Positions 14,762-57,207 are shown, numbered from the stretch's first letter. The stretch is DNA of 64,000 nucleotides from a virus (IMGVR_UViG_3300048598_000287:160001-224000), one strand, 5' to 3'. A program made the numbers and translations. Notes: generated from the letters alone by a model not told the origin.

Positions 14762-15133
14762 ATGCGTTTGCCATTCAATTCGTATATATGTAAGCTTGAC
14801 ATGCCCAATGAATTGCAACATGCCGTGATAGATCTGCGCAAACTATGCATGGAATCGGAAGATACAAAACAGTTATCGGAAGAAATTACTTCTGAAGAAA
14901 GCGCAATGATTAACGCAATAGGAAGAGACATTGTACGGAAAGTGACTGAATATATGAATGAACATGCGGAAAGCTTAGCCGATGTGGAGAAATACATGAA
15001 TACGCTATTCAATGAAAGATCTGGCGAGCTGAAGAAAAACTCAGCAAAAGGCGATAAATATGTCGATATGCTCAAGAATTCATTATGCAGTTTTCTTAAA
15101 ACGGCAGGCATAAATCCTGATCTTATAAACTAG
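14762..15133 (+). CDS. Leader-family protein (putative internal head protein)
   Basis: FNSYICKLDMPNELQHAVIDLRKLCME|SE; GGAGG RBS. Confidence 0.7.
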   Translation: MRLPFNSYICKLDMPNELQHAVIDLRKLCMESEDTKQLSEEITSEESAMINAIGRDIVRKVTEYMNEHAESLADVEKYMNTLFNERSGELKKNSAKGDKYVDMLKNSLCSFLKTAGINPDLIN

Positions 15134-15155
15134 ATATATCATAACATCAGGTGAA

Positions 15156-15605
15156 ATGATGAAGGAACTATTCGAATCTTATATAGGTAAGCTTACCATA
15201 CCGGAAACGCTAAAACAGTCAATCATAGACATACATAAAATATGTCTTGAAGCAGAGGAACTTACTCCGGAAGACGAGCAAAAAATGACTGACGTGCCCG
15301 CACCCGGGGACAATTCAGAGGATCCTGCAAAACCGATACGTGATGTGGGAAATCAAATAGTAAATGATGTCAATACCGCTTTTGTAAACCATAAAGGAAA
15401 CGAAGATTTTGATTATAAAACCGCAATCATTGATTCAGTAAAAAGTAAAAAACCCAAAATAGACGAATGTTTAAAACTAAACAAAAACGCATTGACGGCA
15501 ATAGCGACAATAATAGACCGGCAGACTAAGCAGATGGCTGGAGGAAACCGAGTTACATTGGATGAACTTACAAATGCGCTTGGATATCAGCAAAGTAAAG
15601 AATAA
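15156..15605 (+). CDS. Leader-family protein (putative internal head protein)
   Basis: FESYIGKLTIPETLKQSIIDIHKICLE|AE; late promoter 15124-15132. Confidence 0.7.
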   Translation: MMKELFESYIGKLTIPETLKQSIIDIHKICLEAEELTPEDEQKMTDVPAPGDNSEDPAKPIRDVGNQIVNDVNTAFVNHKGNEDFDYKTAIIDSVKSKKPKIDECLKLNKNALTAIATIIDRQTKQMAGGNRVTLDELTNALGYQQSKE

Positions 15606-43158: not shown

Positions 43159-43608
43159 ATGATATCGTCAGGACTTCTTATAACAGATGGAATCCGTTTC
43201 TTGGCAGAGCTTCCTCTATACCAATCTCCCATAGATCATGGATATGATCTTCCAAAAGGACATGTCGAGCCATTTGATGCCGATTATAGAGCCAGTGCAT
43301 TCCGGGAAGCCAAAGAAGAAACCGGGCATGATTTTGATGCATACATGGATATGGCCGTTCCACTATCTGATTCGCCCGTTAAATATATAAAGGGAAAGCA
43401 GATAATTATTTATCTACTTAAACTCTTACCGGAAGATATGCCGGAAATTTCAGAATATCATTGTGACAGTTTTTTTGCCGATAAGAAAACAGGAAAGCAA
43501 TCACCCGAAGTAATTGCATATGAATACAAGCCGCTTAAAGAAATACGCAGATGGCTTTTCTCAAGTTATGGGAAAACTTTCGATATTCTTAAAATATTCA
43601 CAGAATGA
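43159..43608 (+). CDS. Nudix hydrolase (leaderless paralogue of 41716-42297)
   Basis: SSGLLITDG, FLAELP, YDLPKGHVE, AFREAKEETG. Confidence 0.9.
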   Translation: MISSGLLITDGIRFLAELPLYQSPIDHGYDLPKGHVEPFDADYRASAFREAKEETGHDFDAYMDMAVPLSDSPVKYIKGKQIIIYLLKLLPEDMPEISEYHCDSFFADKKTGKQSPEVIAYEYKPLKEIRRWLFSSYGKTFDILKIFTE

Positions 43609-43635
43609 AAAATCCCGGCAATGCCGGGATTTTTT
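43608..43635. terminator. Bidirectional terminator
   Basis: aaaaatcccggca-a-tgccgggattttt between convergent genes. Confidence 0.8.
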
Positions 43636-44791
43636 AATCCTGATCGCTTACCATATTTCTTTCATGCCTAGAACCTATATATAACAATCCGATGTTGATT
43701 GTATATAGCAAAACACATACAGGAAGCAAAACATTAATATCAAGGTGTTTTAGAAACAACGCCGCTATCCCTGCGAATCCCCATCCGCTAAGAGTAAACG
43801 AATGAATTGTTGATGTATTGTTTATGCCGTATTTATCCGCGATAAAACTAGGAAGAAGAGAGAATCCTCCGCCGTAATTCATATTAAGTATCATAATCAT
43901 TATAACGAACATTATAGTAGATGGAAAGAAAATAGATCCCATGCATATCAGCGCGCTTAATGCAAATACGATAACATACGGAAACCATCTGTTAGTATGA
44001 TCACTTATCCATGCGAATCCAAACCTTCCGCCTGCATTGAAAACTGCGCTCAATGTGCAAAATACCGTTGCAAGTCCTATTTCTACCCCTAAATGCTTAT
44101 ATAGTTGGGCTTCCTGTGAAATGAAGGCAAGACCGCATGCGATGTTCAGGAAGAAGAACAGGCAGGTTGAAATATATGGCAACGTGAATGCAATATTCTT
44201 AAGCTTTACAGTTTCGACATTTTTTGCCATATAGTTAACGGGAAATTTACAGAAAAGAAAGGCGCAGATGACCAGCGGTATAAGATATATCCCGGTAAGT
44301 ATGTAAAATGCATTATCTATTGAGAAATTACTTGTCAGATATGTGTAAAGCGGACTTGAAAATGATTTGGCAAGTCCGAACGAAAGTATAGCTATTGCGC
44401 TTGCTACCGCTTTGTTATGTCTGAAATACAGCATCAACGTTTTTATTGGTGCCACATATCCAAGTCCGCAGCTGCATCCGAACAGGAATCCGTAGGAAAT
44501 GTAGAACAGTGTAACGCTATGTATATGGCAGGCTAGTCCGCTAAGCATGAATCCAGATGCGAACAGAACGACTGACATGACATATACCTTTTTAGGATTC
44601 TTCTCGACGAATTTTCCCATGAACGCCGCGGATAGTCCAAGAAACAATATTGCAAGAGAAAACGCAAATGACATGTCATGATTTAACACTGCTGTCACAT
44701 GGCTTGAAAGAAGACTCCACGCATATACCTGACCTATGCATAGCGAAAGAAAAATTGTTGCCAGGACTGTCCTTATCTGAAGGATTTTCAT
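43634..44791 (-). CDS. MFS transporter, oxalate/formate antiporter (OFA)-like
   Basis: GQVYAWS, GLGYVAPI, FNAGGRFGFAWISD, YGGGFS.LP..IAD.YG; about 12 TM helices. Confidence 0.85.
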   Translation of the reverse strand: MKILQIRTVLATIFLSLCIGQVYAWSLLSSHVTAVLNHDMSFAFSLAILFLGLSAAFMGKFVEKNPKKVYVMSVVLFASGFMLSGLACHIHSVTLFYISYGFLFGCSCGLGYVAPIKTLMLYFRHNKAVASAIAILSFGLAKSFSSPLYTYLTSNFSIDNAFYILTGIYLIPLVICAFLFCKFPVNYMAKNVETVKLKNIAFTLPYISTCLFFFLNIACGLAFISQEAQLYKHLGVEIGLATVFCTLSAVFNAGGRFGFAWISDHTNRWFPYVIVFALSALICMGSIFFPSTIMFVIMIMILNMNYGGGFSLLPSFIADKYGINNTSTIHSFTLSGWGFAGIAALFLKHLDINVLLPVCVLLYTINIGLLYIGSRHERNMVSDQD

Positions 44792-44876
44792 ATATACCTC
44801 TCTATTTATGTTATTAGACGCCGTATGATATTCTTTGAATGCACATAATTCAATGATTCTATAAGAAGTCTAATAA

Positions 44877-45570
44877 CATGATACAGAAAATATAATGAAT
44901 CAATGGAATATATGCAAGACTGGAAGTTAATAAAGATATAATTTATATGAAGGATATAAACTATTAATATGATTGTCCTATCGACACAACATACACTCAA
45001 GTTCGCTAATGCAAGAAAGCAGGATGAAATTCTCATCCTGCTGTCTGAATGGCGCAGAGTGATGCAGCTGATCTGTGACGACCTGTGGAGTAACGGATAC
45101 TGCTGGATGGAAGACGGATGCATCCATGAGTTCAATGTACGCAAATTCAAGCTCTCATTACCTAAATACCTGGACTACAACCGTTTCAGCATAGACACGT
45201 GGCTAAGCGGACGTATGCTCAGTTAATTGGTCACGTGGCTAAGCGGACGTATGCTCAGTTCATTGGTCACGCAGCTAAGCGGCAAGCTCCGTGCAATGCT
45301 AAGCAAGCAGTCGGCGCGGATATATGTATTTGACAGGCTATGCGGACAGGGCGAATACAGCGAACGGCTCTGGGCAAAGATAGAAGAATCGATGCCGAAG
45401 AAGCCGGATTTAAGTGATGCGGGAATAGAGATCAGCTCTAAATGCGCGGATTTCATGGAAACGCCCGGTGGAAAGTTCTACGGATACGTCAGGATCAAAT
45501 CTACGGGACGAGAACACGTCAGGATTCCCATCTGCAGGCATTCCAGGCTGAAGAAATACACGGACGGAAC
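44877..45570 (+). mobile_element. 5' part of a TnpB-like element (left end plus truncated tnpB), copy 1
   Basis: 44877-45026 is homologous to the reverse complement of 56878-57027; carries late promoter 44955-44963. Confidence 0.65.
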
Positions 45571-45592
45571 CCGGGAACGCCCGGAAAGGTGA
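44969..45592 (+). pseudogene. tnpB: TnpB-like RNA-guided nuclease pseudogene (N-terminal ~190 aa; RuvC part missing)
   Basis: STQHTLKFAN..K, RRVMQLICDDLW, DTWLSGRML, KPDL and IPI.RH resemble phage TnpB N-termini; in-frame 36-bp duplication with TAA; truncated near 45571. Confidence 0.6.
45196..45282 (+). repeat. 36-bp tandem duplication (two copies plus a partial third)
   Basis: cacgtggctaagcggacgtatgctcagtt(a/c)attggt x2, then cacgcagctaagcgg. Confidence 0.9.
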
Positions 45593-45737
45593 CGATGTGC
45601 TCAAACGTTCCCGGAGGCTCATTGCACCGGCCCCGCGGGAAATGTAGATTAGACACGCGGAGCGGTGCCGGATCCGCCCGGGGTCGCTGGGCGATGAACC
45701 TCGGGATCTTGCGCCGCAGGTTAGCTAGTCGTTAGGC
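45571..45737 (+). repeat. GC-rich attC-like structured repeat (left copy, ends GTTAGGC)
   Basis: Imperfect inverted copy at 50677-50826; internal hairpin ccgggaacg...cgttcccgg. Confidence 0.55.
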
Positions 45738-45856
45738 GAACAAAAAATAAAGCCAGAAAACGCCATTCCTAATATCAAAACAGTCCAGTCGTCCATGACT
45801 GGGCAATATGCATCAGGAGCCCATATTTGCCAAAAAAAATGTATATTTTAAGTAAC

Positions 45857-47509
45857 ATGATAGCTAATATAAACGAACACAAAAGTCGCATAGCGAAGCA
45901 CATCAAGGATAACGGGGTTTATTACACACCTGACAATCTTGCTGACTTTGTTGCACGCGCAGTTTGGAGGAATATTGGAAATCATAAAGTCGGCACCGTA
46001 TTTGATCCTGCTGTAGGCGAAGGGAGCTTATTGAAGGCATTGTTTAAGTATGCCCCAAATAAGACCATTAGTTACAAAGGTTCAGATATAGATCAAGATG
46101 CTATTCAATCATGTATTACGAATGAGGCATTTGGTAGTGAGTTTAAATTTTCAGTTAAAGATTTTGTAGAATCAATTGACCAATCATTTGGCCTGTTTCA
46201 AGATATTAATGTTGAATATTCTGATGTTATAATTATGAACCCGCCTTATGTAAGAACTCAGAATCTTTCAAATGAAAAAATTAAGACTGTTGCAAAAGAG
46301 CTAGGATTAACAGGGCGTGTTGATTTAGCACATGTATTTATTGCTGGTTCTGCACGGTTTTTGCGAGCAGGTGGAATACTTGCTGTAATTACTTCGAATA
46401 AATTTATGCAAACTCTTGCAGGAGAGGGTCTTCGAATCGTCATAAAGAATGAATTTGAAATCTGTGAAGTCTGGGACTTTGGAGATACAAAACTATTTGG
46501 CGCGGCGGTTCTTCCAATGGTTATGGTTTTGCGAAAGAAACCATGCGAAAATGGACAGGGTGAATTTTATTCTTGTTATAAATGTAATGAAAATCAAAAC
46601 AGGAATTTACCAGTCGAAAACGACAGTCTAATTAATGAACTTATTAGCGCGGGCTTTACTATCAACTGCGGTTCATTACTTAATGGAGCTAGCGAAAATC
46701 GTAAAGTCTGGGTATCTTCAGATGAACAAACAAATAAGTTTCTTGATTCAGTGAAAAAGAATTGCTGGAGAACATTTGGAGATGTATCAAAAATATCTGT
46801 TGGAATCAAGACAACTGCCGATGATGTATTTATCAAGCAAAACTGGAATAGCTTTATACCAAGACCAGAGCTACTTAAACCGCTAGTGACACATGAAGTG
46901 GCTGGAAATATTTATCCTTCCGATATCCAGTCAACCCGCTCCGTATTGTACACACATGAACGTGATGGCGCAAAAAAAAGACCTGTAGATCTTTCTCTAT
47001 ATCCAATCTCTAAAAAATTCCTAGAATCCAATAGAGCACGCCTTGAATCTAGAGATTATATAAAGAAAGCAGGTAGACTTTGGTATGAAATTTGGGTGCC
47101 ACAGGATCCAGCAGTATGGTCAAAGCAAAAAATCGTATTTCGTGAAATTTCAGAGTTGCCACAATTTTGGCTTGATAATAGTGGCTCTGTTGTAAATGGC
47201 GATTGCTATTGGATTGCATTTGATGAATCTGCTCATCCAGATCTTATTTGGTTAATGCTTGGAATTGCCAATTCTGCATTCATTGTTAAATATTACGATG
47301 TTGTATTTAATAATAAAATATATGCTAATCGTAGGCGATTTATGGCTCAATATGTTCAAACATTTCCAATACCAAATCCTGAATCAAAAAGCTCTAAGGC
47401 CATTATTGATTTAGTCAAAGTGATTTTCAACGATAGACTTCCTCAAGAGTCTTGGGCTCATAAGTTAGATACACTTGTTAATAAATCATTCGGATTAGAT
47501 AAATCCTGA
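45857..47509 (+). CDS. Type II N6-adenine DNA methyltransferase, M.BseCI/M.BanIII/M.ClaI-like
   Basis: GVYYTP, FDPAVGEG, NPPYVRT, GRVDL, ITSNK, GDTKLF, GIKTTAD, W(Y)EIWVPQ; likely start MIANIN. Confidence 0.85.
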   Translation: MIANINEHKSRIAKHIKDNGVYYTPDNLADFVARAVWRNIGNHKVGTVFDPAVGEGSLLKALFKYAPNKTISYKGSDIDQDAIQSCITNEAFGSEFKFSVKDFVESIDQSFGLFQDINVEYSDVIIMNPPYVRTQNLSNEKIKTVAKELGLTGRVDLAHVFIAGSARFLRAGGILAVITSNKFMQTLAGEGLRIVIKNEFEICEVWDFGDTKLFGAAVLPMVMVLRKKPCENGQGEFYSCYKCNENQNRNLPVENDSLINELISAGFTINCGSLLNGASENRKVWVSSDEQTNKFLDSVKKNCWRTFGDVSKISVGIKTTADDVFIKQNWNSFIPRPELLKPLVTHEVAGNIYPSDIQSTRSVLYTHERDGAKKRPVDLSLYPISKKFLESNRARLESRDYIKKAGRLWYEIWVPQDPAVWSKQKIVFREISELPQFWLDNSGSVVNGDCYWIAFDESAHPDLIWLMLGIANSAFIVKYYDVVFNNKIYANRRRFMAQYVQTFPIPNPESKSSKAIIDLVKVIFNDRLPQESWAHKLDTLVNKSFGLDKS

Positions 47510-48104
47510 TGGTATTGGTATTTGTAGCTTTGTATTCTTGACCTTTCCTTCAAATCGAGGAAAGAACTTAAAGAACTCTTTACCAGAGCACAAATAGTAA
47601 TTTTCAATAGTTAGGCTATCCTCAAGAATTGATGCGTAAATAATGAGGTAGCGAACCATATACGCAAGATAGGGTGTTTTCCAAGCAGCATCAATTACAA
47701 AATCCTCATCAGGCTGATGGAGCCCCAAATCAATTGTTGGAGATGTTTGAAGCTTAATCTCTAAAAGTTGATTTGGGATATCTGGAAACTGACCACTATC
47801 TTGCCCAATTTCATAGCAAAGTAAGCGACAAATCTTTTCATGAAGATAATATCCTCTATTTCGATCATCGGTCATTCCTCCATAAGGAAATTGCATTAAG
47901 AGCAGAGGCTTGAGTTGCTGGCCAATCTCATCAATTGTTAATAGTGTTCTCGGGATTGGTTCGTCTAAGCACGATGCTTGAGAATTAAATTTAAGAGATG
48001 TTCCTTTTGGCCTTACTTCAAAACTATCAGAAGAAAGTATACGAGATGTAAGTTGCTTAGGCTCTAGTCTTGCTTGATATTTATGTGTAAGTGTTCCAGT
48101 TTTA
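47495..48104 (-). pseudogene. Cognate Type II restriction endonuclease, N-terminally truncated by IS256
   Basis: Frame stays open up to the IS end (KTGTLTHKYQAR...RNRG...GQFPDIPNQLLEIKLQTSPTIDLG); convergent with the MTase; no start codon. Confidence 0.75.
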
Positions 48105-49449
48105 GATAATGCAACCCTTTTTTCTGTAAATTTATTTCTTCACTTTCTTCATCGCTTTGGGGTTTAAGTAAATCTTACCATCAGTCCATTCGTCGTTTTG
48201 CTCCATAAGTAGAGCACCAACAAGCCTTAGACATGATTCATCATTAGGGAATATCCCTACGACACGGGTTCTACGACGTATTTCTTTGTTCAGTCTCTCT
48301 AAACAGTTGCTAGTCCTGATCTTGCGCCATGCATCCTGTTTGAAGGCATAGAAAGTCATTCCGTCTTCATAGTTCGCTTCTAGCCAAGAGCTGAAATCGG
48401 AGGCCCGCTTGCGGTACTGCCCTATTATTTTCTTGGCCACGGCTCTGGCTTGTTCGAGGGTCTCTTGTCCATAGATACGGCGCATGGCTTCGCCTATCTC
48501 TTTGCGCATGTCGTTTCTTGGCACCCTGTTCTGGGCGTCTTGTGCCATATGGAAAAGGCATCGTTGCCAAGGGACTGATGGAAATACTGCTTTGCGGGCA
48601 TTACGAAGTCCTGCGTGATCATCGCTTATAATCAACTCCATTCCTGTAAGACCCCTACCGGTTAATGACTCTAAGAATTGTCTCCAGTTTGTTTCGGCTT
48701 CACTGCTAGAAGTGTCTACACCTAAAATCTCTCGCTGGCCCTTCGCATTGAGTCCAACTGCGATCAGTATGGCCCGATCGCATACTTGACCGTCCTTGCG
48801 TACTTTCTGATATTGAGCGTCCAGCCATACGACTTGCATGGGGCCCAGTTCTCGGCTCCTGAATTTCTGCACCTCCGCATCAAGGCCCTGCGCTGCCTTG
48901 GAGACCTGGGATGAGCTTATTTCAAGCCCGCAGAGTTTCTCCAGTATCCTTGTGACCTTTCGGGTCGATACGCCTTGCACATACATTTCTGCCAGAGCTA
49001 AGCGTAACGCCTTTTCAGATCTTGTGGCTGCCTCTAAAGACTTGGGATAAAACCCACTTTCTCGGGTTTGCGGAATGTCTAAGGCTACTTTTCCTAAACC
49101 TGTCGTTATTGATCGAGGTTTAAACCCATTAGCATAGTCCATACGCTCATCAGTACGCTCATAGGGTTGTGCTTTCAGGTAGCTTGATCGTTCCACTTTC
49201 ATTGCCTCATTCATCATAATCCGAAATAAGTCGAGGATTGCATCAGGGCCTCGCTCCACAAGCATGTTTAAAATGTCTGCGGAATTTGTATATTCAGCAT
49301 TGGAGTTCTTCATCTGTTTTCCTTTAGTTGAAGTTTGTCGTAATTCCAAAACTAAAAGAATTGAAGGACTCCATCTGGCCCTTCCCCAATCACCGTAGGG
49401 TGACTTGGTGGAGGGGCTGATGAATTTACAGAAAAAAATTTACACTATC
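48105..49449 (-). mobile_element. IS256-family insertion sequence
   Basis: Terminal IRs GATAATGCAACCCTTTTTTCTGTAAATT / GATAGTGTAAATTTTTTTCTGTAAATT; flanks are not duplicated. Confidence 0.9.
48132..49313 (-). CDS. IS256-family transposase
   Basis: NGFKPR, MYVQGVSTRKV, WLDA, ISDDHAGL, WQRC.FH, TSNCLERLNKEIRRR. Confidence 0.95.
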   Translation of the reverse strand: MKNSNAEYTNSADILNMLVERGPDAILDLFRIMMNEAMKVERSSYLKAQPYERTDERMDYANGFKPRSITTGLGKVALDIPQTRESGFYPKSLEAATRSEKALRLALAEMYVQGVSTRKVTRILEKLCGLEISSSQVSKAAQGLDAEVQKFRSRELGPMQVVWLDAQYQKVRKDGQVCDRAILIAVGLNAKGQREILGVDTSSSEAETNWRQFLESLTGRGLTGMELIISDDHAGLRNARKAVFPSVPWQRCLFHMAQDAQNRVPRNDMRKEIGEAMRRIYGQETLEQARAVAKKIIGQYRKRASDFSSWLEANYEDGMTFYAFKQDAWRKIRTSNCLERLNKEIRRRTRVVGIFPNDESCLRLVGALLMEQNDEWTDGKIYLNPKAMKKVKK

Positions 49450-49850
49450 GAATCTTCGGCAGAGACGTAGTTGATTTCGAATTCGTTGACACCGAAAGAA
49501 TGGATGATGTTTTTTAGTTCCGAAATCAGTTTCTGCTCAATGTAAGTCCTGGCATTTTTGCGAAGCTTGTCACGCTGATTCTTGTTACTTTGGGTTATAC
49601 CGAAAAAAGATTTGTCAATGGCAATGTCGATATCTTCGGAAAAGCGTCGAATGAGCTTCCATCCTTTGCTGAGGGATGTTCCTCCTTTGAACGAAAAGGA
49701 TCCTTTGCAGGAGGACAAGGAAAGAGCCTTGAGAAGGGTGGTCACCCACCAGTCTTTTTCGATGATTGTGTCACTGACACCGGTTTTCTCCGAGGCTTGC
49801 TCGAGAAGTGTCCTTTTTTCGGAGAGGGTGTATTTGCTCCATGAACTCAT
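49450..49850 (-). pseudogene. abiEii: AbiEii nucleotidyltransferase toxin, C-terminally truncated by IS256
   Basis: IIEKDWWVT, FKGGTSLSK, RFSEDID; only ~133 aa before the IS end. Confidence 0.85.
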
Positions 49851-50458
49851 GTCAAGGCTCCTTTGACTGTGCAGCGCATCCACGTCGGCATTAAAAGGAT
49901 GTCTTTTTCAAAGGATTTTTCTTTGGAGCAGGCTAAAACGAGTTCTATTATCCTTGCACGTTGTTTTTCGGAAATATCATTTTCTCCGATTTCCTTGAGT
50001 GCAAGCATAAGCAGTAGCATTCTCTTGTCATTGAACAGAGCGTATTTCGCGGTTTGTCGCTTTAAGATAATGCTTCTTTTGCCAATTTTGATAGTTCTTG
50101 ACGATCCGGTGGTGACGAATTCTTCTTTTGTCGGAACCTGGTCGGAAAGGCCGAGAGCGTTTGCCGCGGTGACCCCAGCAGGAACAATGTCGACTTTGTC
50201 CCTTTCGGCAATTGCATATGCGATTTCTTCAAGGGATGGGAATTCTGTCCCGAAACGATTTTTTTTCGGATACAAGTAAACGCCGCCATATAGACGAATG
50301 AGATCTCCGCCCTTTGCCATTCTCGAAAAGGCTCGGGTTATGGCGGATTCCTCGCCAATGGAAGCGTAGTCCTTGACACAATGAATCTTGCCTCGGCCTT
50401 TGGCCTTGATGACTTCCTGAAGTTTTTTTGTCAGGTCTTTTTGCATGTTTTTATTCAC
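49847..50458 (-). CDS. abiEi: AbiEi-type antitoxin (DUF6088-like)
   Basis: AFSRM...LIRLYGGVY.YP, AANALGLSDQVP, TTGSSR.I; coupled to abiEii. Confidence 0.85.
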   Translation of the reverse strand: MNKNMQKDLTKKLQEVIKAKGRGKIHCVKDYASIGEESAITRAFSRMAKGGDLIRLYGGVYLYPKKNRFGTEFPSLEEIAYAIAERDKVDIVPAGVTAANALGLSDQVPTKEEFVTTGSSRTIKIGKRSIILKRQTAKYALFNDKRMLLLMLALKEIGENDISEKQRARIIELVLACSKEKSFEKDILLMPTWMRCTVKGALT

Positions 50459-50497
50459 CCTTATGTCCGAAATTTAGTAAAAAAATCAGACATAAGG
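50459..50497. promoter_or_regulatory. Inverted-repeat operator upstream of abiEi
   Basis: ccttatgtccga...tcagacataagg; AbiEi proteins are known to autoregulate at promoter inverted repeats. Confidence 0.6.
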
Positions 50498-50676
50498 AAA
50501 TCTCGCCATAAATAACTATCATATTCTGTTTTTGAATTTAACATTCATTTTAAATTCCCGCTTAAACATTTTTCCCACTTATGTTATTATAGTACCTTTT
50601 CCTTTCTCCATTGGTGTAAAAATAAATTTTCTCACCTTTTTCCCCAGTTGTGCTATCATATTCTACGCTATTATAA

Positions 50677-50826
50677 TCATAACGACTAACTAACTCACAG
50701 CGCAGGATCCCGAAGAAGTCCATCGCCTAACGCCCCCGGGCGGATCCGAGCCAGCTCCGCGTTCCAAATCTACATTTTTTGCGGAACCGGTCCAATGAGC
50801 TTCCGGGAACGTAAGAGCCCATTGTC
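50677..50826 (-). repeat. attC-like structured repeat (right, inverted copy, ends GTTATGA)
   Basis: Aligns to about 45591-45737. Confidence 0.55.
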
Positions 50827-51450
50827 AGGCAGGTCCTTTATGTCAAGGGAAGAATATTCTTTATCCAGGTCTATGGCATGCTGCTTAAGCCATTCGGATT
50901 CTTCGGGTGTCATTTCAGTATGTCCGTCAGAATATGCCTGTATCCATGAGTCGAAAGTATATTTTTCCTTGAACAGTTCAGTTATTTCCTGCGCCTTCGC
51001 AAATCTTGGATCATTTTTCTGCCACCGATCAAACACGTCCACATATCCGATAAGTACAGAAAGATGGATAAGGTCAAAATGCGCCTTGAAAAAATCATAG
51101 CATAGCATAGCTCCGCACTTTGATGTATCTATGATGATTCCATTGGCCGGATCATTATATTTCATAGCCGTGGGGTGATGGTCAAGGACAAGTATAGGAA
51201 GTCCGGTGCCACGAAGTATCCCCATTATCTTTTCAGGATAATAATCAGATGCGATTATACAGTCATATCCATCGGATATGGCAGGAATCTGTTCGCCTAC
51301 GCTTTCTTCTACATACCCATACCGCATTTCAATATACGTTATGTCATGATATACATTCTTCAGAACTAGATGCGATGCAGCGCCGTCCAAATCATAATGG
51401 GTAAGGTTAAGCACTTTAAGCGTAGGATTTTAAAAATATTCAAGATTCAT
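50770..51450 (-). pseudogene. DHH-family phosphoesterase, truncated at the island border
   Basis: THYDLDG, LDHH, CGA.L, D.FDRW; C-terminus runs into the repeat; ATG 51450 frame has TAA at codon 7. Confidence 0.75.
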
Positions 51451-51500
51451 ATGTTTGTCCTATTGGGTTTTGAATGGATGAAAGGGAACTATATAATTTT

Positions 51501-51878
51501 CTAACGAAGGCATTCACATTTTTTAAGTGCATCTGATATCTCCTCACGGTCGGCAAGAGATGCTGAATCGGGAAGATGATCGAGTACGAAATCAATATAT
51601 GTATGCATTGATTCACATTTTGATTGATCATCCATATTTGTGTCAATTTGTTCTTCCAGGTCATCAATGTGGCCATCGATATCGCTAAGGCATTCCTTGA
51701 TGGATACTGCATCAAGCTGATTAACGATTTCGGTAAGCAGATCGGTAACCTGTTTCATTGTATATGTAGAACCCGGATCCGTTTTAGCAATCTGGGACAT
51801 CTTTTCAGACAGCAGTCGGCTCGTGTTGTCTATATATTCTTCGGCATCATCGGTATGTACTGCTAAATAATGATACAT
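51501..51878 (-). CDS. Hypothetical acidic coiled-coil protein
   Basis: 125 aa, AAGGA RBS. Confidence 0.7.
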   Translation of the reverse strand: MYHYLAVHTDDAEEYIDNTSRLLSEKMSQIAKTDPGSTYTMKQVTDLLTEIVNQLDAVSIKECLSDIDGHIDDLEEQIDTNMDDQSKCESMHTYIDFVLDHLPDSASLADREEISDALKKCECLR

Positions 51879-51914
51879 ATGAATCCTTTTTTGAATGGGT
51901 ATCCGTTAATATAG

Positions 51915-51944
51915 AAATACATAGCCACGAGTGGCTATGTATTT
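51915..51944. terminator. Hairpin/terminator
   Basis: aaatacatagccac-ga-gtggctatgtattt. Confidence 0.7.
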
Positions 51945-51956
51945 AAATTAAACGCA

Positions 51957-52271
51957 TCATCGCTTTGCAAATTTTGTCATCTTATCGCAAATCGTGCATA
52001 TAAGCTTGACATCATCAACGCGCATATGGCTAAGTTCTTTAATGCCAGATATGGCGTCTACGTTTTTCTTAAGTTCTTTCATGGTCTCATCGGCATCAAG
52101 CGTAACTCCGCTCAACTTAGCTGATTCAAACAATGCATCGATGAGTCCGGAGGATTTAAGCACCGCCATCCTACGATCACTGTCCCATATATCATCATTT
52201 TCTGATGAAGTTGTATTGCTAGACGTATTCCTAGAAAAGAATGCGTCTATTATTGATTTTATTATGGTCAT
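51957..52271 (-). CDS. Hypothetical protein
   Basis: 104-aa ORF, AAGGAG upstream. Confidence 0.65.
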   Translation of the reverse strand: MTIIKSIIDAFFSRNTSSNTTSSENDDIWDSDRRMAVLKSSGLIDALFESAKLSGVTLDADETMKELKKNVDAISGIKELSHMRVDDVKLICTICDKMTKFAKR

Positions 52272-52283
52272 TTTATCATCTCC

Positions 52284-54086
52284 TTATGGTTTAATGAAAT
52301 TTCTTAATATTATGCAATTCGGAATTTTCTGAATATCCGTATTATCGGCGCGCGTGTCACTTATACTCTTGCTATCGACTCTGTCATAATAATTGCATTC
52401 TTTATTATCCGGTTCGTTTACCGTCAATGGCATTACGCGTTGACTATCGGCGGCAACTTTCTTCCTTATATGCTCCATGGCGGCGCATAGGAATTTTTCG
52501 AATCTTTTTGATAGCTCGGTTGTTTTATCAAATGCATCGTAGCATTGGAAAACCGGGGATTTTTTATCCGATTCGGTGAAAAAATCAAAATTAACTTCAG
52601 CGCATACAGTTTTCCAATTGAAAAACATGGATTTCCTATTTATGAGGGATCCAAGGCAATGGTGAAATTTCACCACATATGCCCTCATCTGAAAGGTAGT
52701 CTTTATACGGAAATGTTCAATATACCACGGCATTTTATATGGGCATTTCATTATGTCATCATTAGGTATTATATTAAGTGCAGATTCGGCCATCGCCCTT
52801 TCATGTATTTCAGAACATTGCTTTAAAACAGTTTTCGCCGTCTTTCCTGAAGGAATGCATAATGGTATCTTTCCGTCGAGTTCCTTTATTATAGTTAACG
52901 CATCATTTAGATATGTATTAAAATCATGGATAAGCCCTAGCCGTATATGATATTCAGTTGTATCTTTTGAGTCTGGCTTAAAAAATTCAAACATTGATAA
53001 AAATGCACGTTTATCAGTAGATATTTTGATAAGGATTTCGGATATTGTTTGCCGGTTTAATTCAGTCATACGGTAATATTCAGCATCAACAGGCTCATCC
53101 GCAGCCTCCATACTATCATCTATGTCCGTATCCTCCATGATATCGTGCTGGTTACCATGGATTTTTCCTAAATTTTCATATGCTGAATTGATGATAAGCC
53201 GTGAATCATTGTTCAAAGCCCTGCATGTTCCCGTAGCATTTGCTTCCGATGTGAACGGTATGTTAAGAAAATTTTTACAATAGTATATAGATGGGATTTT
53301 GAGAAGATACCTGGATGTTGCTGGTTTACATAATACAGTGTCATATGAATCAGAAGAACAATATTTATGCGGGTTTTCATCAGGTAAAGAAGACGTCAAC
53401 TTATATGTCCATTGTTCCATGGTATCAAAGAAAAGAACATATTTAGGAAACTTTCTGTTCATCTTCTGAAAAATATTCTTTATTTTCTTATTTACTGCTG
53501 CACGAGAAGAACATTCTTTAACATCTATTGCTGTATTATTAATACGGCAGATCAGGACGCCAAAATTAGGTTCCGAATGTTTAGAAATATCTGCTAAAAG
53601 CTGCATCCCGCAATCCGATAGCATTGCCAATTTAATAATGTTCTCTTCAAGCCAATAATGAGTCATATATGACGCATTGATGTTCATTGACCTAGCGCGA
53701 GAAAGTATTTCCTGTATACGGGCAATCATTAAACTGTCAATGCCTAGCCAAGGTGCATATTTATCGATGATGAGCCTTTTAGCTGAATCAGATAATACAT
53801 ATTCATAGATATCATTATTGTCACTGGAATCAGTATGACAATTTATTCTTAGCGGATCGTTATATTTCACATCAATATATGTCCGGTATTTATCGCAGGC
53901 AAAAAATAGTCGCATGTTATCATCAGACATGTTGCAGTCTACATAATCAGAAACGCACAAGATTTTATTTGCATTTAAAGCAGGAGCATCAGAGGCATTT
54001 ATGAAATCAGACCAGTGTAAATAAAATGTTCCATTTGATATACTATCTTTGCTATAACGCATTTGGCATCCTGTATTTGCTTCCAT
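52284..54086 (-). CDS. Hypothetical protein with a C-terminal PcfJ-like motif
   Basis: IKTTFQMRAYVVKFHHCLGS resembles the PcfJ L..E...M.HCVGSY motif. Confidence 0.5.
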   Translation of the reverse strand: MEANTGCQMRYSKDSISNGTFYLHWSDFINASDAPALNANKILCVSDYVDCNMSDDNMRLFFACDKYRTYIDVKYNDPLRINCHTDSSDNNDIYEYVLSDSAKRLIIDKYAPWLGIDSLMIARIQEILSRARSMNINASYMTHYWLEENIIKLAMLSDCGMQLLADISKHSEPNFGVLICRINNTAIDVKECSSRAAVNKKIKNIFQKMNRKFPKYVLFFDTMEQWTYKLTSSLPDENPHKYCSSDSYDTVLCKPATSRYLLKIPSIYYCKNFLNIPFTSEANATGTCRALNNDSRLIINSAYENLGKIHGNQHDIMEDTDIDDSMEAADEPVDAEYYRMTELNRQTISEILIKISTDKRAFLSMFEFFKPDSKDTTEYHIRLGLIHDFNTYLNDALTIIKELDGKIPLCIPSGKTAKTVLKQCSEIHERAMAESALNIIPNDDIMKCPYKMPWYIEHFRIKTTFQMRAYVVKFHHCLGSLINRKSMFFNWKTVCAEVNFDFFTESDKKSPVFQCYDAFDKTTELSKRFEKFLCAAMEHIRKKVAADSQRVMPLTVNEPDNKECNYYDRVDSKSISDTRADNTDIQKIPNCIILRNFIKP

Positions 54087-54186
54087 ATATTCTTTTGCTA
54101 AAGTTCATCAGTAATTCTTTAATATAGTAAAAAATAACCGTTATGTCAATGCTATTTTAAAAAATCGCCTGATGTTCCGAATTCCA
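53999..54186. repeat. 188-bp direct repeat, copy A (intact promoter and gene start)
   Basis: Matches 57023-57207 with 5 transitions and 2 small indels. Confidence 0.95.
54121..54149 (-). promoter_or_regulatory. Sigma70-type early promoter TTGACA-17-TATATT
   Basis: Reverse complement ttgaca taacggttattttttac tatatt upstream of the 600-aa gene. Confidence 0.7.
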
Positions 54187-56935
54187 CTTTGGGGAGGGCA
54201 TCGACGATGTCCATGGTTTTGATGCTTAGGTCGATGACAGAAAGGAGGGTGTCGAGGATGTAGCGGGGGTTTTGGTGTTCTTTTGCCCAGTCGTTGCAGT
54301 CGTTTGTGATTAGGCTCGCTTTGTCCTGGGTGACGGCATAGCGCTCGACTATCCAATCGATGGCGGATTTACCGTTTACGATGTAATCGTAGGCACGGGC
54401 GGGAATGTTTTCAATGGTGATCTGAGGGTTGTAGAGAATCTTGAATTTGTCGGACTTGCCTGCGAAGCGCATTTTGTCAGGAATGCGGAAATACTTGTAG
54501 TCTTCAGGGGTGCCGCTTGCGCTTTTGTCCCCTGCGATGTTTATGCCGAGTTTTTTGGCGAGCGCCCTGGCCTCGGCGGTGGATTTCTCATAATTCAGAT
54601 GGAGACCGGCTAGGGCGCGGCCCGCTTTTTCAAAGGCGGCGAAATCTTCGTAGCCGGAGACGAAAATGATTTTCGGGAGCGATTTCTTGAGGTCGTCTTT
54701 GAAAGTTTCCCGGTAGTCCTTGCTGTGGAGGAACCCGTAGACGTAATAGAAGATGTTTTCTTTGGTGATTTTTTTGTTTGCACCGTAGATGCGTCTGGCT
54801 TCAGCTAGAGCCCAGTTGGAGACCCCGTCTTTCCTTTCAAGTTCCTGTGCAAAGAGGTCGCCTTTATTTTGTTCCGAATAGTAATGGAACGGGAAACATT
54901 GACTTTTCCCTATGAGTTCAAGGTCAGGAAGAGTATTTGAAATGATACAGGAAAAATCTTTGGTTACGCCAATTCCAGAAACGCAGATGACGAGGTTTTG
55001 CGTATCGGGGGTGGGGAAAAGACGAGGGCTAAGGCCAAAGCACTCTATTAAATCATTTTGAGCATATAAATTTTGTTTTTGAAAGGGTCGATAAGATCCC
55101 AATCTTACAAAATCATCGGAATATTCAATATTTTTTCCATTGACTAGTGATTTTTTTAGTCCGCGTGTCCAACTTATTTTTGTTGGATCACTGCTGAGAA
55201 TGTCTTCCAGTTTCTTTCCTGATTTTACTGCTTTTTTATATAATTCCCGCTGAGAATTGTAGAAATCTACACATGATTTCATATTCTTTTGCAGGTTTTT
55301 CTCCGAGAATGAATAAACCCAAGAATCTCTATTTGTAGCCACACCAATAGCATTTGTTTCAAACAAACTTTTTGTTCCCGTGTCAAATTTCTTTTCAGGA
55401 GCAAGTGGTGTTAGCGTATCAAATACGCCGCCACGTTGGTTGATCCAGTCGGCTTTTTCGTTGGGTGTAATTTGTTCCCACTTTATATGTTGAATGGATA
55501 CAGCTTCTTTCAATATTTCCAGTTTACGCTCCCGGGTCAGGTAGTCGCCGATGTCGTGGTAATGGATTTCGCAGGGCCGCCCTTTCTTCGCGGGATTGTA
55601 AACGAGGAAGGTGATGGTCACGGGAGTACGGCTGCCGCTCCCGAATATTTTGCCGCCTTCTTTCCTTGAAAGTTCTCCGCTCGTCCGCTGGTTCCCTCGT
55701 AGGTTGAGTACCCAGATGCCCGTGAACTCTTCGACCAGACATTTCCGCATACCGTCCTGCCCGTTGCCGTCCAACCAGCCGCCATTGGAGATAAAGGCGA
55801 CGATGCCGCCTTCCTTGTTCTTTTGAATGCGGTCGCTTGCAAAACGGAATGCCTTGATATAGGAATCGTAAAGGGATTTTTTCAGGTTTGCGGTGGATTT
55901 CGCGGCATAGCTATCTTCAACCCTGGCGTCCAATACAGGGTAGCTTAAATTCTGGGCGTTGTCGTTTGCGCTTTTTTGCCCTACGGAATAGGGCGGGTTC
56001 CCGATTATCACGCGGACAGGAATTCTACGCTGCCGTTCCACTTCCCTGTAGTTGTCATCAAAGTAGCCATCCAGCTTCGCCGCCTCCTGGCTGCTTCCGT
56101 CATCGCTTTCCGCCGTCTGGAAGGTATCGGTCAGGCAGATTCCGTTAAAGGGCAGGTATGCGGCCGACTTGTTCAAATCGTGGTAGACGCTTTCGATGTT
56201 CACGTCGGCAATGTAATAGGCGAGCAGCACGATTTCATTCGCGTGGAGTTCCTTTTTGTATTTGCGCTCCATGTCCTCCTTTTGAATGAGTCCGCTCTGA
56301 AGGAGCCTCGTGATGAACGTGCCCGTTCCCGTGAACGGATCCATGATGTGAACGTCGCGGTTCGTCAGATCGGTTTTGAATTCATCGTGCAGAAGAATAT
56401 TCACGGAATGGATGATAAAGTCAACGCACTCGATCGGCGTATAGACTATGCCCAGTTTTTCAACCGTGGTCGGGAACGCGGATTTGAAGAACTTTTCGTA
56501 GAGTTCCTTGATGACTTTCTGCTTGCCTTCGAGGTTATCGAGCTGTCCGACGTTTGTGCGCACGGAGGTATAGAATTTTTCCAGTTCCCCGGCCTCTTCG
56601 TTCACGCCCTGCTTCTGGAGTTCCCTGATGACGCGGGCCATGGTACGCGATATGGAATTGTTGTCGACGAACTTGTAGTCGGCGAACAGGGCGTCGAATA
56701 CAGGCTGCGTGATCATGTGCTGGGCGAGCATCTGCACCGCGTCGTTTTCGGTCACGGAATTGTTGATGTTCTTCCGGAGCGCCGCCAGATATTTTTCAAA
56801 GAGCTGCTTTGTCCGGCTGTTCTGCTCCGCTCGCAGGTAGTCAATCCGGGCGATGTATTTCTTCGCGATGACGCCGACATCCTGCTTTCTTGCATTCGCA
56901 AAATTGATCGTATGATTTGTTGAACGGGCCATCAT
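54152..56935 (-). CDS. Chimeric Type ISP (LlaGI/LlaBIII-like) MTase-TRD lacking nuclease and helicase, fused to a TnpB N-terminus
   Basis: LGIVYTP.E.VDFI, DPFTGTGTF, GNPPYS, LYDSYI, NLRGNQRTSGE, NGKSAIDW; first 19 aa match the TnpB N-terminus; last residues come from the phage repeat. Confidence 0.9.
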   Translation of the reverse strand: MMARSTNHTINFANARKQDVGVIAKKYIARIDYLRAEQNSRTKQLFEKYLAALRKNINNSVTENDAVQMLAQHMITQPVFDALFADYKFVDNNSISRTMARVIRELQKQGVNEEAGELEKFYTSVRTNVGQLDNLEGKQKVIKELYEKFFKSAFPTTVEKLGIVYTPIECVDFIIHSVNILLHDEFKTDLTNRDVHIMDPFTGTGTFITRLLQSGLIQKEDMERKYKKELHANEIVLLAYYIADVNIESVYHDLNKSAAYLPFNGICLTDTFQTAESDDGSSQEAAKLDGYFDDNYREVERQRRIPVRVIIGNPPYSVGQKSANDNAQNLSYPVLDARVEDSYAAKSTANLKKSLYDSYIKAFRFASDRIQKNKEGGIVAFISNGGWLDGNGQDGMRKCLVEEFTGIWVLNLRGNQRTSGELSRKEGGKIFGSGSRTPVTITFLVYNPAKKGRPCEIHYHDIGDYLTRERKLEILKEAVSIQHIKWEQITPNEKADWINQRGGVFDTLTPLAPEKKFDTGTKSLFETNAIGVATNRDSWVYSFSEKNLQKNMKSCVDFYNSQRELYKKAVKSGKKLEDILSSDPTKISWTRGLKKSLVNGKNIEYSDDFVRLGSYRPFQKQNLYAQNDLIECFGLSPRLFPTPDTQNLVICVSGIGVTKDFSCIISNTLPDLELIGKSQCFPFHYYSEQNKGDLFAQELERKDGVSNWALAEARRIYGANKKITKENIFYYVYGFLHSKDYRETFKDDLKKSLPKIIFVSGYEDFAAFEKAGRALAGLHLNYEKSTAEARALAKKLGINIAGDKSASGTPEDYKYFRIPDKMRFAGKSDKFKILYNPQITIENIPARAYDYIVNGKSAIDWIVERYAVTQDKASLITNDCNDWAKEHQNPRYILDTLLSVIDLSIKTMDIVDALPKVEFGTSGDFLK

Positions 56936-57027
56936 ATAAATAGTTTATATCCTTCATATAAATTATATCTTTATTAACTTACACTCTTGCATATATTCCA
57001 TCAATTTACTATATTTTCTGTATTATG
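56878..57027 (-). mobile_element. Left end and first codons of the TnpB-like element, copy 2
   Basis: Homologous to 44877-45026; late promoter 56941-56949. Confidence 0.7.
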
Positions 57028-57207
57028 AAATCAGACCAGCGTAAATAAAATGTTCCATTTGATATGCTATCTTTGCTATAACGCATTTGCATCCTGTATT
57101 TGCTTCCATATATTCTTTTGCTAAAGCTCATCAGTAATTCTTTAATATAGAAAAATAACCGTTATGCCAATGCTATTTTAAAAAATCACCTGATGTTCCG
57201 AATTCCA
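57023..57207. repeat. 185-bp direct repeat, copy B (degenerate promoter and frameshifted gene stub)
   Basis: Matches 53999-54186. Confidence 0.95.

What the first reader, a model, noticed from the sequence alone, without database searches (positions are those of the whole stretch)
44877..57207. Two independent captures of host defence DNA, both starting inside the same TnpB-like element and keeping only protective modules
Seen: 44877-45026 and 57027-56878 are diverged copies of one element end (late promoter, start, ...FANARKQD). In both, tnpB is cut short and continues into compositionally foreign DNA: island 1 (45571-50826) and island 2 (56877-54187). Three defence systems are represented, and each has lost its toxic part: Type II MTase intact with REase truncated; AbiEi intact with AbiEii truncated; Type ISP MTase-TRD without nuclease or helicase. 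Inference: a recurrent route by which the phage turns host defence loci into anti-defence genes, with TnpB elements acting as break hotspots or dispensable promoter-bearing landing pads. Whether the element is mechanistically involved or merely tolerated cannot be decided from this window.
Basis: partly seen in the sequence, partly recalled or inferred. Interest (0 to 1): 0.9.

Follow-up and report, generated by a model that had tools for sequence, protein, structure and literature searches.

The report
Phage hotspot collecting disarmed host defence genes
A giant wastewater phage has a fast-changing genome region where pieces of bacterial defence systems, stripped of their harmful parts, have been joined onto broken copies of a small selfish element (TnpB) or moved about by bacterial jumping genes, showing step by step how a phage can build counter-defence genes.

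Summary
The 159-bp repeat (44868-45026 / 57036-56878) is the left end of a 1.44-kb phage-resident solo-TnpB element whose intact copy lies elsewhere in the genome. All the domain calls hold: MTase intact with REase cut, AbiEi intact with AbiEii cut, and a Type ISP coupler-MTase-TRD with no nuclease or helicase.

Other assemblies of the same phage population (99-100% identical) give a natural series. There are empty sites for both modules, a full TnpB-A next to an intact DHH gene, and at least six arrangements of the MTase side.

The Type ISP chimera is one clean, widespread capture. It has TnpB codons 1-20, then ISP residues ~752-1657, then 7 codons of a neighbouring gene. It is made through microhomology joints and bracketed by a 188-bp duplication.

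"Island 1" is not one capture but a mosaic. The MTase travels as cargo of an active IS256 compound transposon with an 8-bp target duplication, the same IS truncates both REase and AbiEii, and the AbiE part is seen only in this assembly.

Four independent breakpoints fall in TnpB elements. Two are IS-associated and one TnpB was already a pseudogene, so the evidence favours TnpB elements as tolerated, promoter-bearing landing pads over an active TnpB mechanism. Anti-defence function is inferred, not shown.

The parts
44868..44968 (+). Left end (LE-A) of solo-TnpB element copy A, including the phage promoter-like motif TATAAACTA 5 nt before the ATG
   Evidence: The empty site in L130 and the occupied site in L131 fix the insertion point at 44867/44868. 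Motif enrichment.
44969..45580 (+). tnpB-A pseudogene: the 5' ~205 codons, with a 36-nt tandem duplication (45196-45267) carrying an in-frame TAA
   Evidence: L122 shows the same gene continuing past 45580 as tnpB.
45571..45580 (.). Left joint of island 1: ~10-nt overlap (CGGGAACGCC) shared by tnpB-A and the incoming DNA
   Evidence: L122 matches the window up to 45580, and L125 matches from 45571.
45590..45734 (+). Unit 'c': GC-rich ~145-nt repeat, an inverted copy of 50680-50827 (78%)
   Evidence: No Rfam match.
45827..47509 (+). Type II gamma-class N6-adenine MTase (Eco57I/TaqI_C type), full length, with the DPAVGEG and NPPY motifs present
47498..48104 (-). C-terminal ~58% of the cognate Type II REase. 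The frame is open up to the IS end and the N-terminal ~147 residues are missing
48105..49449 (-). IS256-family insertion sequence, 1345 bp, with imperfect terminal inverted repeats starting GATA. The transposase gene is 48132-49349. No target duplication in the window
   Evidence: An 8-bp duplication appears at another site in L122.
49450..49883 (-). N-terminal remnant of the AbiEii toxin, cut by the IS right end
49847..50458 (-). AbiEi (DUF6088) antitoxin/regulator, full length
50680..50827 (-). Unit c' (inverted copy of c). Its last 9 nt (50819-50827) overlap the DHH sequence, forming the right joint of island 1
50819..51414 (-). Backbone remnant: the N-terminal ~2/3 of a DHH phosphoesterase gene that is intact (320-330 aa) in relatives and in sister genomes
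51501..54086 (-). Three phage genes of unknown function (125, 104 and 600 aa)
53999..54186 (.). Direct repeat copy 2: the last 8 codons of the 519-aa gene, the intergenic region, and the first 29 codons of the 600-aa gene
   Evidence: It is single-copy in the empty allele L141.
54152..56935 (-). Chimeric 927-aa MTase: TnpB residues 1-20, then Type ISP residues ~752-1657 (54187-56877), then 7 codons copied from the end of the 519-aa gene
56878..57036 (-). LE-B: TnpB left end with TATAAACTA, the ATG and 20 codons. Its outer 14 nt (57023-57036) are the native 600-aa-gene sequence
57023..57207 (.). Direct repeat copy 1 (96% identical to copy 2)

Best explanation
Window 44.8-57.2 kb is a hyperplastic accessory region of a ~420-kb T4-like jumbo phage common in wastewater. 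It holds two decayed copies (A and B) of a 1.44-kb tnpA-less TnpB element that is resident in this phage group and carries the phage's own promoter-like motif.

Module B is a single, widespread capture. The coupler-MTase-TRD half of a bacterial Type ISP restriction enzyme was joined in frame behind TnpB codon 20, and its 3' end was joined to the last codons of the neighbouring 519-aa gene. The joints that can be read against a partner sequence lie in microhomologies, and the event left a 188-bp duplication. This pattern fits template switching or illegitimate recombination during recombination-dependent replication (inferred). The product is most likely a stand-alone site-specific adenine methyltransferase, expressed from the TnpB left end, that pre-methylates phage DNA against the cognate enzyme (inferred).

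Module A is a mosaic. A Type II MTase with a REase stump is cargo of an active IS256 compound transposon. In this assembly that block, together with an AbiEi/AbiEii-stump segment, replaced the 3' half of the already dead tnpB-A and the end of the DHH gene, through two microhomology joints.

TnpB elements act mainly as dispensable, GC-rich, promoter-bearing landing pads. Selection then keeps the insertions that lack toxic parts.
For: Relatives and sister genomes show the backbone order MFS|DHH|519-aa gene. The empty A site is L130, and the full element A next to an intact DHH is L131, with base-exact, duplication-free insertion. The empty B site is L141, with a single 188-bp segment.

The parent Type ISP enzymes are 1657-aa bacterial proteins, 79-81% identical over 97% of the phage protein. 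The joint falls at the start of the coupler domain. The 3' joint lies in GGAATTCGGA, which is shared with the end of the 519-aa gene. The chimera is exact in 9 contigs and is bridged in 4 studies. The catalytic motifs are intact, and 15 of 22 changed codons are synonymous. The MTase-TRD clamp is the target-binding and methylating unit of these modular enzymes (PMC4872093).

The IS256 compound transposon has an 8-bp duplication, GCATGATT. IS ends lie in tnpB-A at 45114 and in a second TnpB family. tnpB-A already has its stop codon in L122, where the rest of the gene is still present (gene table). The island-1 joints are 10-nt and 9-nt overlaps. The TnpB family sits on 400-470-kb contigs, and no close relative was found in the cellular genomes. 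TATAAACTA is enriched 6-fold and lies upstream of ORFs.
Against: No methylation, expression or plating data exist. The Type II MTase is frameshifted in several populations, so it is not always maintained. No close donors were found for the MTase (45% at best) or for AbiEi (44% at best). The AbiE segment and its joint to DHH are seen only in this assembly. Four of four or five breakpoints in TnpB DNA, which makes up about 1-2% of the genome, is more than neutral tolerance alone easily explains. Both island-1 joints fall at the outer edges of the inverted c units, which this model leaves unexplained.
Confidence: 0.6

Rival explanations
1. TnpB is mechanistically involved. TnpB-omegaRNA cuts the empty site in a co-infecting genome. 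Repair synthesis copies inward from the left end, stalls (for example at the 8-bp hairpin in codons 17-27) and switches template into host DNA. Captures therefore start just inside tnpB and keep its left end.
For: Both modules keep the LE side and lose the RE side. The copy B joint falls exactly at the hairpin CAGGATGA-n5-TCATCCTG. Empty and occupied alleles coexist, so homing substrates exist. TnpB-C keeps RuvC-like motifs and the zinc-finger domain. Free-standing nucleases are known to mark boundaries of exchange in phages (PMC13565253).
Against: Two of the four TnpB breakpoints are IS256 ends. tnpB-A carried a stop codon in a sister genome that keeps the rest of the gene. The outer 14 nt of LE-B are native 600-aa-gene sequence, and the module is flanked by a 188-bp duplication. 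This suggests that a 159-nt LE piece was copied in, not that an element once resided there. No omegaRNA or TAM could be defined, because the LE flanks of the three copies differ.
Confidence: 0.2
2. Part of island 1 is an assembly artefact. The path through the multi-copy IS256 joined two different molecules, so the order REase stump-IS-AbiEii stump is not real.
For: The IS is multi-copy in these communities, with its exact transposase in 179 collection blocks. The exact AbiEi protein is not on record anywhere else. All long sister contigs show other arrangements.
Against: The AbiE segment is joined on its right to phage DHH sequence through only a 9-nt overlap, which is too short to mislead an assembler. 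So AbiE DNA is physically linked to phage DNA. The left joint (tnpB-A|c-MTase) recurs in L125.
Confidence: 0.15
3. Island 1 is a discrete mobile cassette bounded by 145-nt terminal inverted repeats (attC-like or transposon ends) and was inserted as a unit.
For: Both island-1 joints lie within 10 nt of the outer ends of c and c', which read 5'-TGAC...GTCA-3'. Each unit sits upstream of a cargo operon.
Against: In L125 the DNA continues for another 411 nt beyond the outer edge of c. There is no tyrosine recombinase in the 277 kb held, no RYYYAAC box, no target duplication and no fold signal (z -0.9 to -1.8). No other copies were found in the viral or cellular collections.
Confidence: 0.1
4. The island-1 genes are neutral debris of IS traffic in a dispensable region and are not anti-defence genes.
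For: The MTase is split by a 1-nt deletion at 46972 in runs X1 and X3 and in contigs L119, L127 and L128. AbiE is absent from all sister contigs. The region also collects ISL3 and DDE_Tnp_1 elements.
Against: The MTase is intact in the window and in L121, L122, L124 and L125. An unrelated second MTase was acquired at the same locus in L129, which suggests recurrent selection for methylases.
Confidence: 0.3

Closest known systems
Phage orphan DNA methyltransferases acquired from host restriction-modification systems (for example T4/P1 Dam-type anti-restriction methylation)
   Same: A phage carries a methylase without a working nuclease. The expected role is self-protection of phage DNA.
   Different: Here one methylase is carved out of a single-polypeptide Type ISP enzyme at the coupler boundary and fused in frame to 20 codons of a TnpB gene. 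The intermediate alleles (empty, occupied, captured) are all visible in one natural population.
[quoted passage not shown]
   Same: The coupler, gamma-class N6A MTase (NPPY) and Type_ISP_C TRD are 79-81% identical to full-length bacterial enzymes.
   Different: The Mrr nuclease and SF2 helicase domains (parent residues 1-751) are absent, so the protein cannot translocate or cut.
Solo TnpB (OMEGA) elements of the IS200/IS605 family and free-standing homing nucleases of T4-like phages
   Same: A 1.44-kb tnpA-less element with insertion free of target duplication. It is polymorphic between co-circulating genomes and sits at the edges of variable DNA.
   Different: Its left end carries the phage's own promoter-like motif. 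Two copies are reduced to 5' stumps that now head foreign genes. No guide RNA or TAM was defined.
IS256 compound transposons of bacteria
   Same: A Mutator-type DDE transposase, imperfect inverted repeats, an 8-bp target duplication, and cargo mobilised between an outer IS end and a full IS.
   Different: It is transposing inside a jumbo phage genome and carries an R-M remnant. In the window it has no duplication and joins two truncated toxic genes.
Phage capture of host antitoxins (for example the PhiTE pseudo-ToxI/ToxI capture, or T4 Dmd)
   Same: An antitoxin-type gene (AbiEi) sits in a phage without its active toxin.
   Different: It is seen in only one assembly, and whether AbiEi neutralises a host AbiEii in trans is untested.

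Membership tests
Solo TnpB / IS200-IS605 (OMEGA) element | TnpB protein with a RuvC-like triad and a zinc-finger (TNB) domain | tested here: met
   Copy C scores 53 bits on Pfam Cas12f1-like_TNB (cut-off 26.3). NCBIfam guided_TnpB scores 67.9 bits, below its cut-off of 100. GADQG, IALEN and DADINAAKN can be read in the translation. Copies A and B are stumps.
Solo TnpB / IS200-IS605 (OMEGA) element | Discrete element inserted without target duplication | tested here: met
   The empty (L130) and occupied (window LE, L131 RE) alleles are base-exact. Removing ~1440 bp restores a 288-aa ORF at copy C.
Solo TnpB / IS200-IS605 (OMEGA) element | omegaRNA at the right end and a conserved TAM next to the left end | tested here: inconclusive
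   There is no Rfam match in the window. The LE flanks of the three copies differ (TAAGAA, GTCAAT, ACGCTG), while the RE flanks of A and C both start CTCTYAT.
Type ISP restriction-modification enzyme | N-terminal Mrr-family nuclease and SF2 helicase-like ATPase | tested here: not met
   The protein aligns only to parent residues 752-1657. No Mrr_cat_2, ResIII or Helicase_C domain is present.
Type ISP restriction-modification enzyme | Coupler, gamma N6A MTase and Type ISP TRD | tested here: met
   ISP_coupler scores 5.5e-40 and Type_ISP_C 2.9e-105. NPPY and DPFTGTG are present.
Type II restriction-modification system | An intact MTase and an intact cognate REase | tested here: not met
   The MTase covers 7-575/579 of its profile. 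The REase covers only 148-356/359 and has no start codon near the IS.
AbiE (Type IV toxin-antitoxin / abortive infection) | An AbiEi antitoxin together with a full AbiEii nucleotidyltransferase | tested here: not met
   AbiEi covers 3-192/202. AbiEii covers only 2-120/309 and is cut by the IS.
IS256 family | Mutator-type DDE transposase, terminal inverted repeats, 8-bp target duplication | tested here: met
   Transposase_mut scores 9.5e-113. The inverted repeats start GATA. The 8-bp duplication GCATGATT is seen in L122. The window copy has none.
Integron attC cassette boundary (for units c and c') | RYYYAAC / GTTRRRY core sites, direct orientation, and a cognate IntI | tested here: not met
   Only one GTTAGGC is present and there is no RYYYAAC. 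The units are inverted. No PF00589 hit in the 277 kb, although the genome is only 66% complete.
Phage anti-restriction orphan methyltransferase | Methylates phage DNA and protects it from the cognate nuclease | not testable with these tools
   This needs a methylome or a plating assay.

The most novel reading that the evidence does not exclude
Phage-resident TnpB elements are gene-capture platforms. Homing breaks made by the RNA-guided nuclease are repaired by synthesis that starts at the element's left end and switches template into host DNA. This yields expression-ready, in-frame chimeras, and so a general route by which jumbo phages create anti-defence genes from host defence loci.
Probability: 0.15. 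Interest if true: 0.85.

Novelty: new variant of a known kind. Interest (0 to 1): 0.66.

Why it matters
Phages are known to carry orphan methylases and antitoxins, but the birth of such genes is rarely caught in the act. Here one natural population holds the empty sites, the selfish-element insertions, and the finished product: a methylase cut out of a single-chain restriction enzyme exactly at a domain boundary and wired to a phage promoter through a TnpB stump. The same region also shows bacterial insertion sequences actively transposing inside a giant phage and carrying an R-M remnant as cargo. It therefore gives testable material on how counter-defence genes arise, on whether a Type ISP MTase-TRD works alone, and on what TnpB elements do in phages.

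Tried and rejected
- **No near-identical DNA elsewhere:** megablast of the region against the phage and plasmid collections gave no match.
- **Element end and TnpB in other viruses:** exact-pattern scans of viral contigs for the LE core and the FANARKQD-coding stretch found none. The TnpB protein scan of viral contigs also found none.
- **Type ISP fragment in other viral contigs:** none.
- **Is unit c the element's own right end or omegaRNA?** No similarity to copy C's 3' region; the score equals that of shuffles.
- **Rfam on 44-58 kb:** nothing at E<=1.
- **Fold of c and c':** not better than shuffles (z -0.9 to -1.8). Two sequences are too few for covariation.
- **Pattern scans for c:** one chance hit inside a signal-peptide coding region in cellular genomes and none in viral contigs.
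- **AbiEi donors in metagenomes:** only relatives at <=44% identity.
- **Run cover over AbiE:** the four runs laid gave no cover over 49.6-50.5 kb.
- **T4 late-promoter consensus TATAAATA:** not enriched. The sigma-70 scan was uninformative.
- **Host-TnpB homology-anchor idea:** no close TnpB relative was found in the cellular genome collection.
- **Exact look-ups of the window's own 600-aa protein and AbiEi:** not on record.
- **L104:** this contig has fold-back ends typical of a low-coverage artefact and was ignored.


Full report
**What the window is.** The window is bases 160001-224000 of a 277-kb IMG/VR virus record estimated to be 66% complete. It encodes a T4-type portal, major capsid protein and a gp15-like protein. 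Relatives with 88% identical capsid protein are 419-422 kb long with terminal repeats. Near-identical DNA is held in wastewater, landfill and sludge metagenomes from 16 studies.

**The repeat and the element.** Window 44868-45026 (+) and 57036-56878 (-) are 159 nt and 86% alike. A third copy heads an intact 432-aa TnpB at genome 96072-97370.
- Removing ~1440 bp there restores a 288-aa ORF, so the element is a 1.44-kb solo-TnpB insertion.
- Relatives at 60-67% identity sit on 400-470-kb contigs. No close relative was found in the cellular genome collection. The family therefore looks phage-resident.
- The left end carries TATAAACTA 5 nt before the ATG. This motif is 6-fold enriched in the genome, and 32 of its 39 sites lie just upstream of ORFs, including structural genes. 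The T4 consensus itself is not enriched.

**Backbone and empty sites.** Five relatives have MFS | DHH (325-330 aa) | 512-aa gene | helicase, so the 12.4 kb between 44.8 and 57.2 kb is extra. Window ORF 50770-51414 is the N-terminal two-thirds of DHH. Contigs of the same population (99-100% identity) give the missing stages:

| Locus | State |
|---|---|
| L130 | MFS next to an intact DHH, with no element |
| L131 | a TnpB right end abutting the intact DHH at the same base |
| L141 | the 519-aa gene followed directly by the 600-aa gene, with a single copy of the 188-bp segment |

**Module B.** ORF 54152-56935 (-) encodes 927 aa: TnpB residues 1-20, then coupler, N6A-MTase and Type ISP TRD.
- Full-length 1657-aa bacterial enzymes match at 79-81% over 97% of it, from parent residue ~752. 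The nearest named ones are Fibrobacteraceae MAGs, with Bacteroidales at 58%.
- The last 7 codons and the following DNA repeat the end of the 519-aa gene. A 185-188-bp direct repeat (53999-54186 and 57023-57207, 96% identical) brackets the module.
- The 3' joint lies in GGAATTCGGA, shared by both partners. The outer 14 nt of LE-B are native 600-aa-gene sequence.
- The joint with tnpB is bridged in four studies, and the exact protein occurs on nine other contigs of up to 69 kb.
- The catalytic motifs are intact. In a divergent patch carried by three runs, 15 of 22 changed codons are synonymous.
- The MTase-TRD clamp is the recognition and methylation unit of these modular enzymes (PMC4872093).

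I infer a stand-alone methylase, made by template switching or illegitimate recombination.

**Module A.** tnpB-A has a 36-nt tandem duplication with a stop codon. L122 carries the same stop but continues as tnpB beyond 45580. After 45580 come, in order:
- unit c (45590-45734);
- a full Type II MTase;
- the C-terminal 58% of its REase;
- a 1345-bp IS256-family element;
- the N-terminal 40% of AbiEii;
- a full AbiEi;
- unit c'.

The IS has no target duplication here, and it alone separates the two truncated toxic genes. The left joint is a ~10-nt overlap and the right joint a 9-nt overlap. GC content differs by module (R-M 36%, IS and AbiE ~45%, c 55-63%), which suggests several sources.

**The MTase side is in flux.**

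| Form | Where seen | Arrangement |
|---|---|---|
| V | L101, L102, L119, L124, L127, L128; runs X1, X3 | IS right end joined to tnpB-A at 45114, inverted; 47773 joined to the IS left end; 45730 joined to 51402 |
| NUDIX insertion | L122 | [IS-left-end fragment-MTase-REase stump-IS256] in the NUDIX gene with an 8-bp duplication, a true compound transposon |
| ~19-kb site | L121 | the module at window ~19 kb, beside the last 82 nt of a second TnpB family |
| 600-aa gene | L125 | c-MTase and IS256 inside a DDE_Tnp_1 composite within the 600-aa gene |
| Other MTase | L129 | an ISL3 element and an unrelated MTase (24% identity) at the locus |

The MTase is frameshifted in several form-V genomes. 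The exact AbiEi protein is on record nowhere else.

**Reading.** All the observations stand. The Type ISP module is a genuine, clean, probably selected capture. Island 1 is an IS-driven mosaic, and its AbiE part is unverified outside this assembly. Four independent breakpoints fall in TnpB DNA. Two of them are IS ends, and one TnpB carried its stop codon in a sister genome that keeps the rest of the gene. I therefore favour dispensable, GC-rich, promoter-bearing landing pads plus selection (0.6) over an active TnpB route (0.2). Two things remain unexplained: both island-1 joints coincide with the outer edges of the c units, and the copy B joint coincides with a hairpin in tnpB.

**Earlier notes of this scan.** Unchecked first-reader notes flagged the IS, the duplication, the inverted units and the copy C insertion. 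I checked each of these independently.

Noticed in passing
whole genome; in the window e.g. 13154, 15671, 40402, 44955, 56949: TATAAACTA is enriched 6-fold (39 sites vs 6.6 expected). 32 of the 39 sites lie within 60 nt upstream of an ORF, often at 23-27 nt, including structural genes. It is a candidate promoter motif for this phage.
   Followed up: partly
window 54551-54781: Runs X1, X3 and X5 carry a ~230-nt patch of the Type ISP gene with ~40 differences, mostly synonymous, inside otherwise identical sequence. This looks like gene conversion from another Type ISP allele.
   Followed up: partly
window 46972: A 1-nt deletion splits the Type II MTase into 376 + 137 aa in runs X1 and X3 and in contigs L119, L127 and L128. 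The gene is intact in the window and in L121, L122, L124 and L125.
   Followed up: partly
genome 45525-46721 (outside the window; L118:1026-2222): A second, unrelated solo TnpB (398 aa, OrfB_IS605 + TNB). In sister genomes (L121, run X5) an IS256 end lies 82 nt from its right end.
   Followed up: partly
L129:7545-10705: In a 69-kb sister contig the locus carries an ISL3-family transposase and a different Eco57I-type MTase (537 aa, 24% identical), together with a deletion of the 600/104-aa genes.
   Followed up: partly
L125 (inside the equivalent of window 53794-53797): A composite bounded by DDE_Tnp_1 IS ends, with a 4-bp duplication, carries MTase-c-411 nt-IS256 inside the 600-aa gene. Coverage is low (1.8x).
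   Followed up: partly
window 45017-45046 and the equivalent in copy C: An 8-bp hairpin (CAGGATGA-n5-TCATCCTG) lies in tnpB codons 17-27. The copy B joint lies exactly at its first arm.
   Followed up: no
window 44806-44848 vs L130: Between the MFS start and the element A insertion site, the window has ~43 nt where L130 has ~150 unrelated nt. This is a further small replacement polymorphism.
   Followed up: no
window 43159-44791: The phage encodes a NUDIX hydrolase and an MFS transporter next to the hotspot. The NUDIX gene is the target of the IS256 compound transposon in L122 and run X2.
   Followed up: no
L100:6001-7520 and 14877-15593: In the bacterial contig holding the closest full-length Type ISP enzyme, AbiEi/AbiEii genes flank it. 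This is a defence island of the kind the phage pieces resemble.
   Followed up: no
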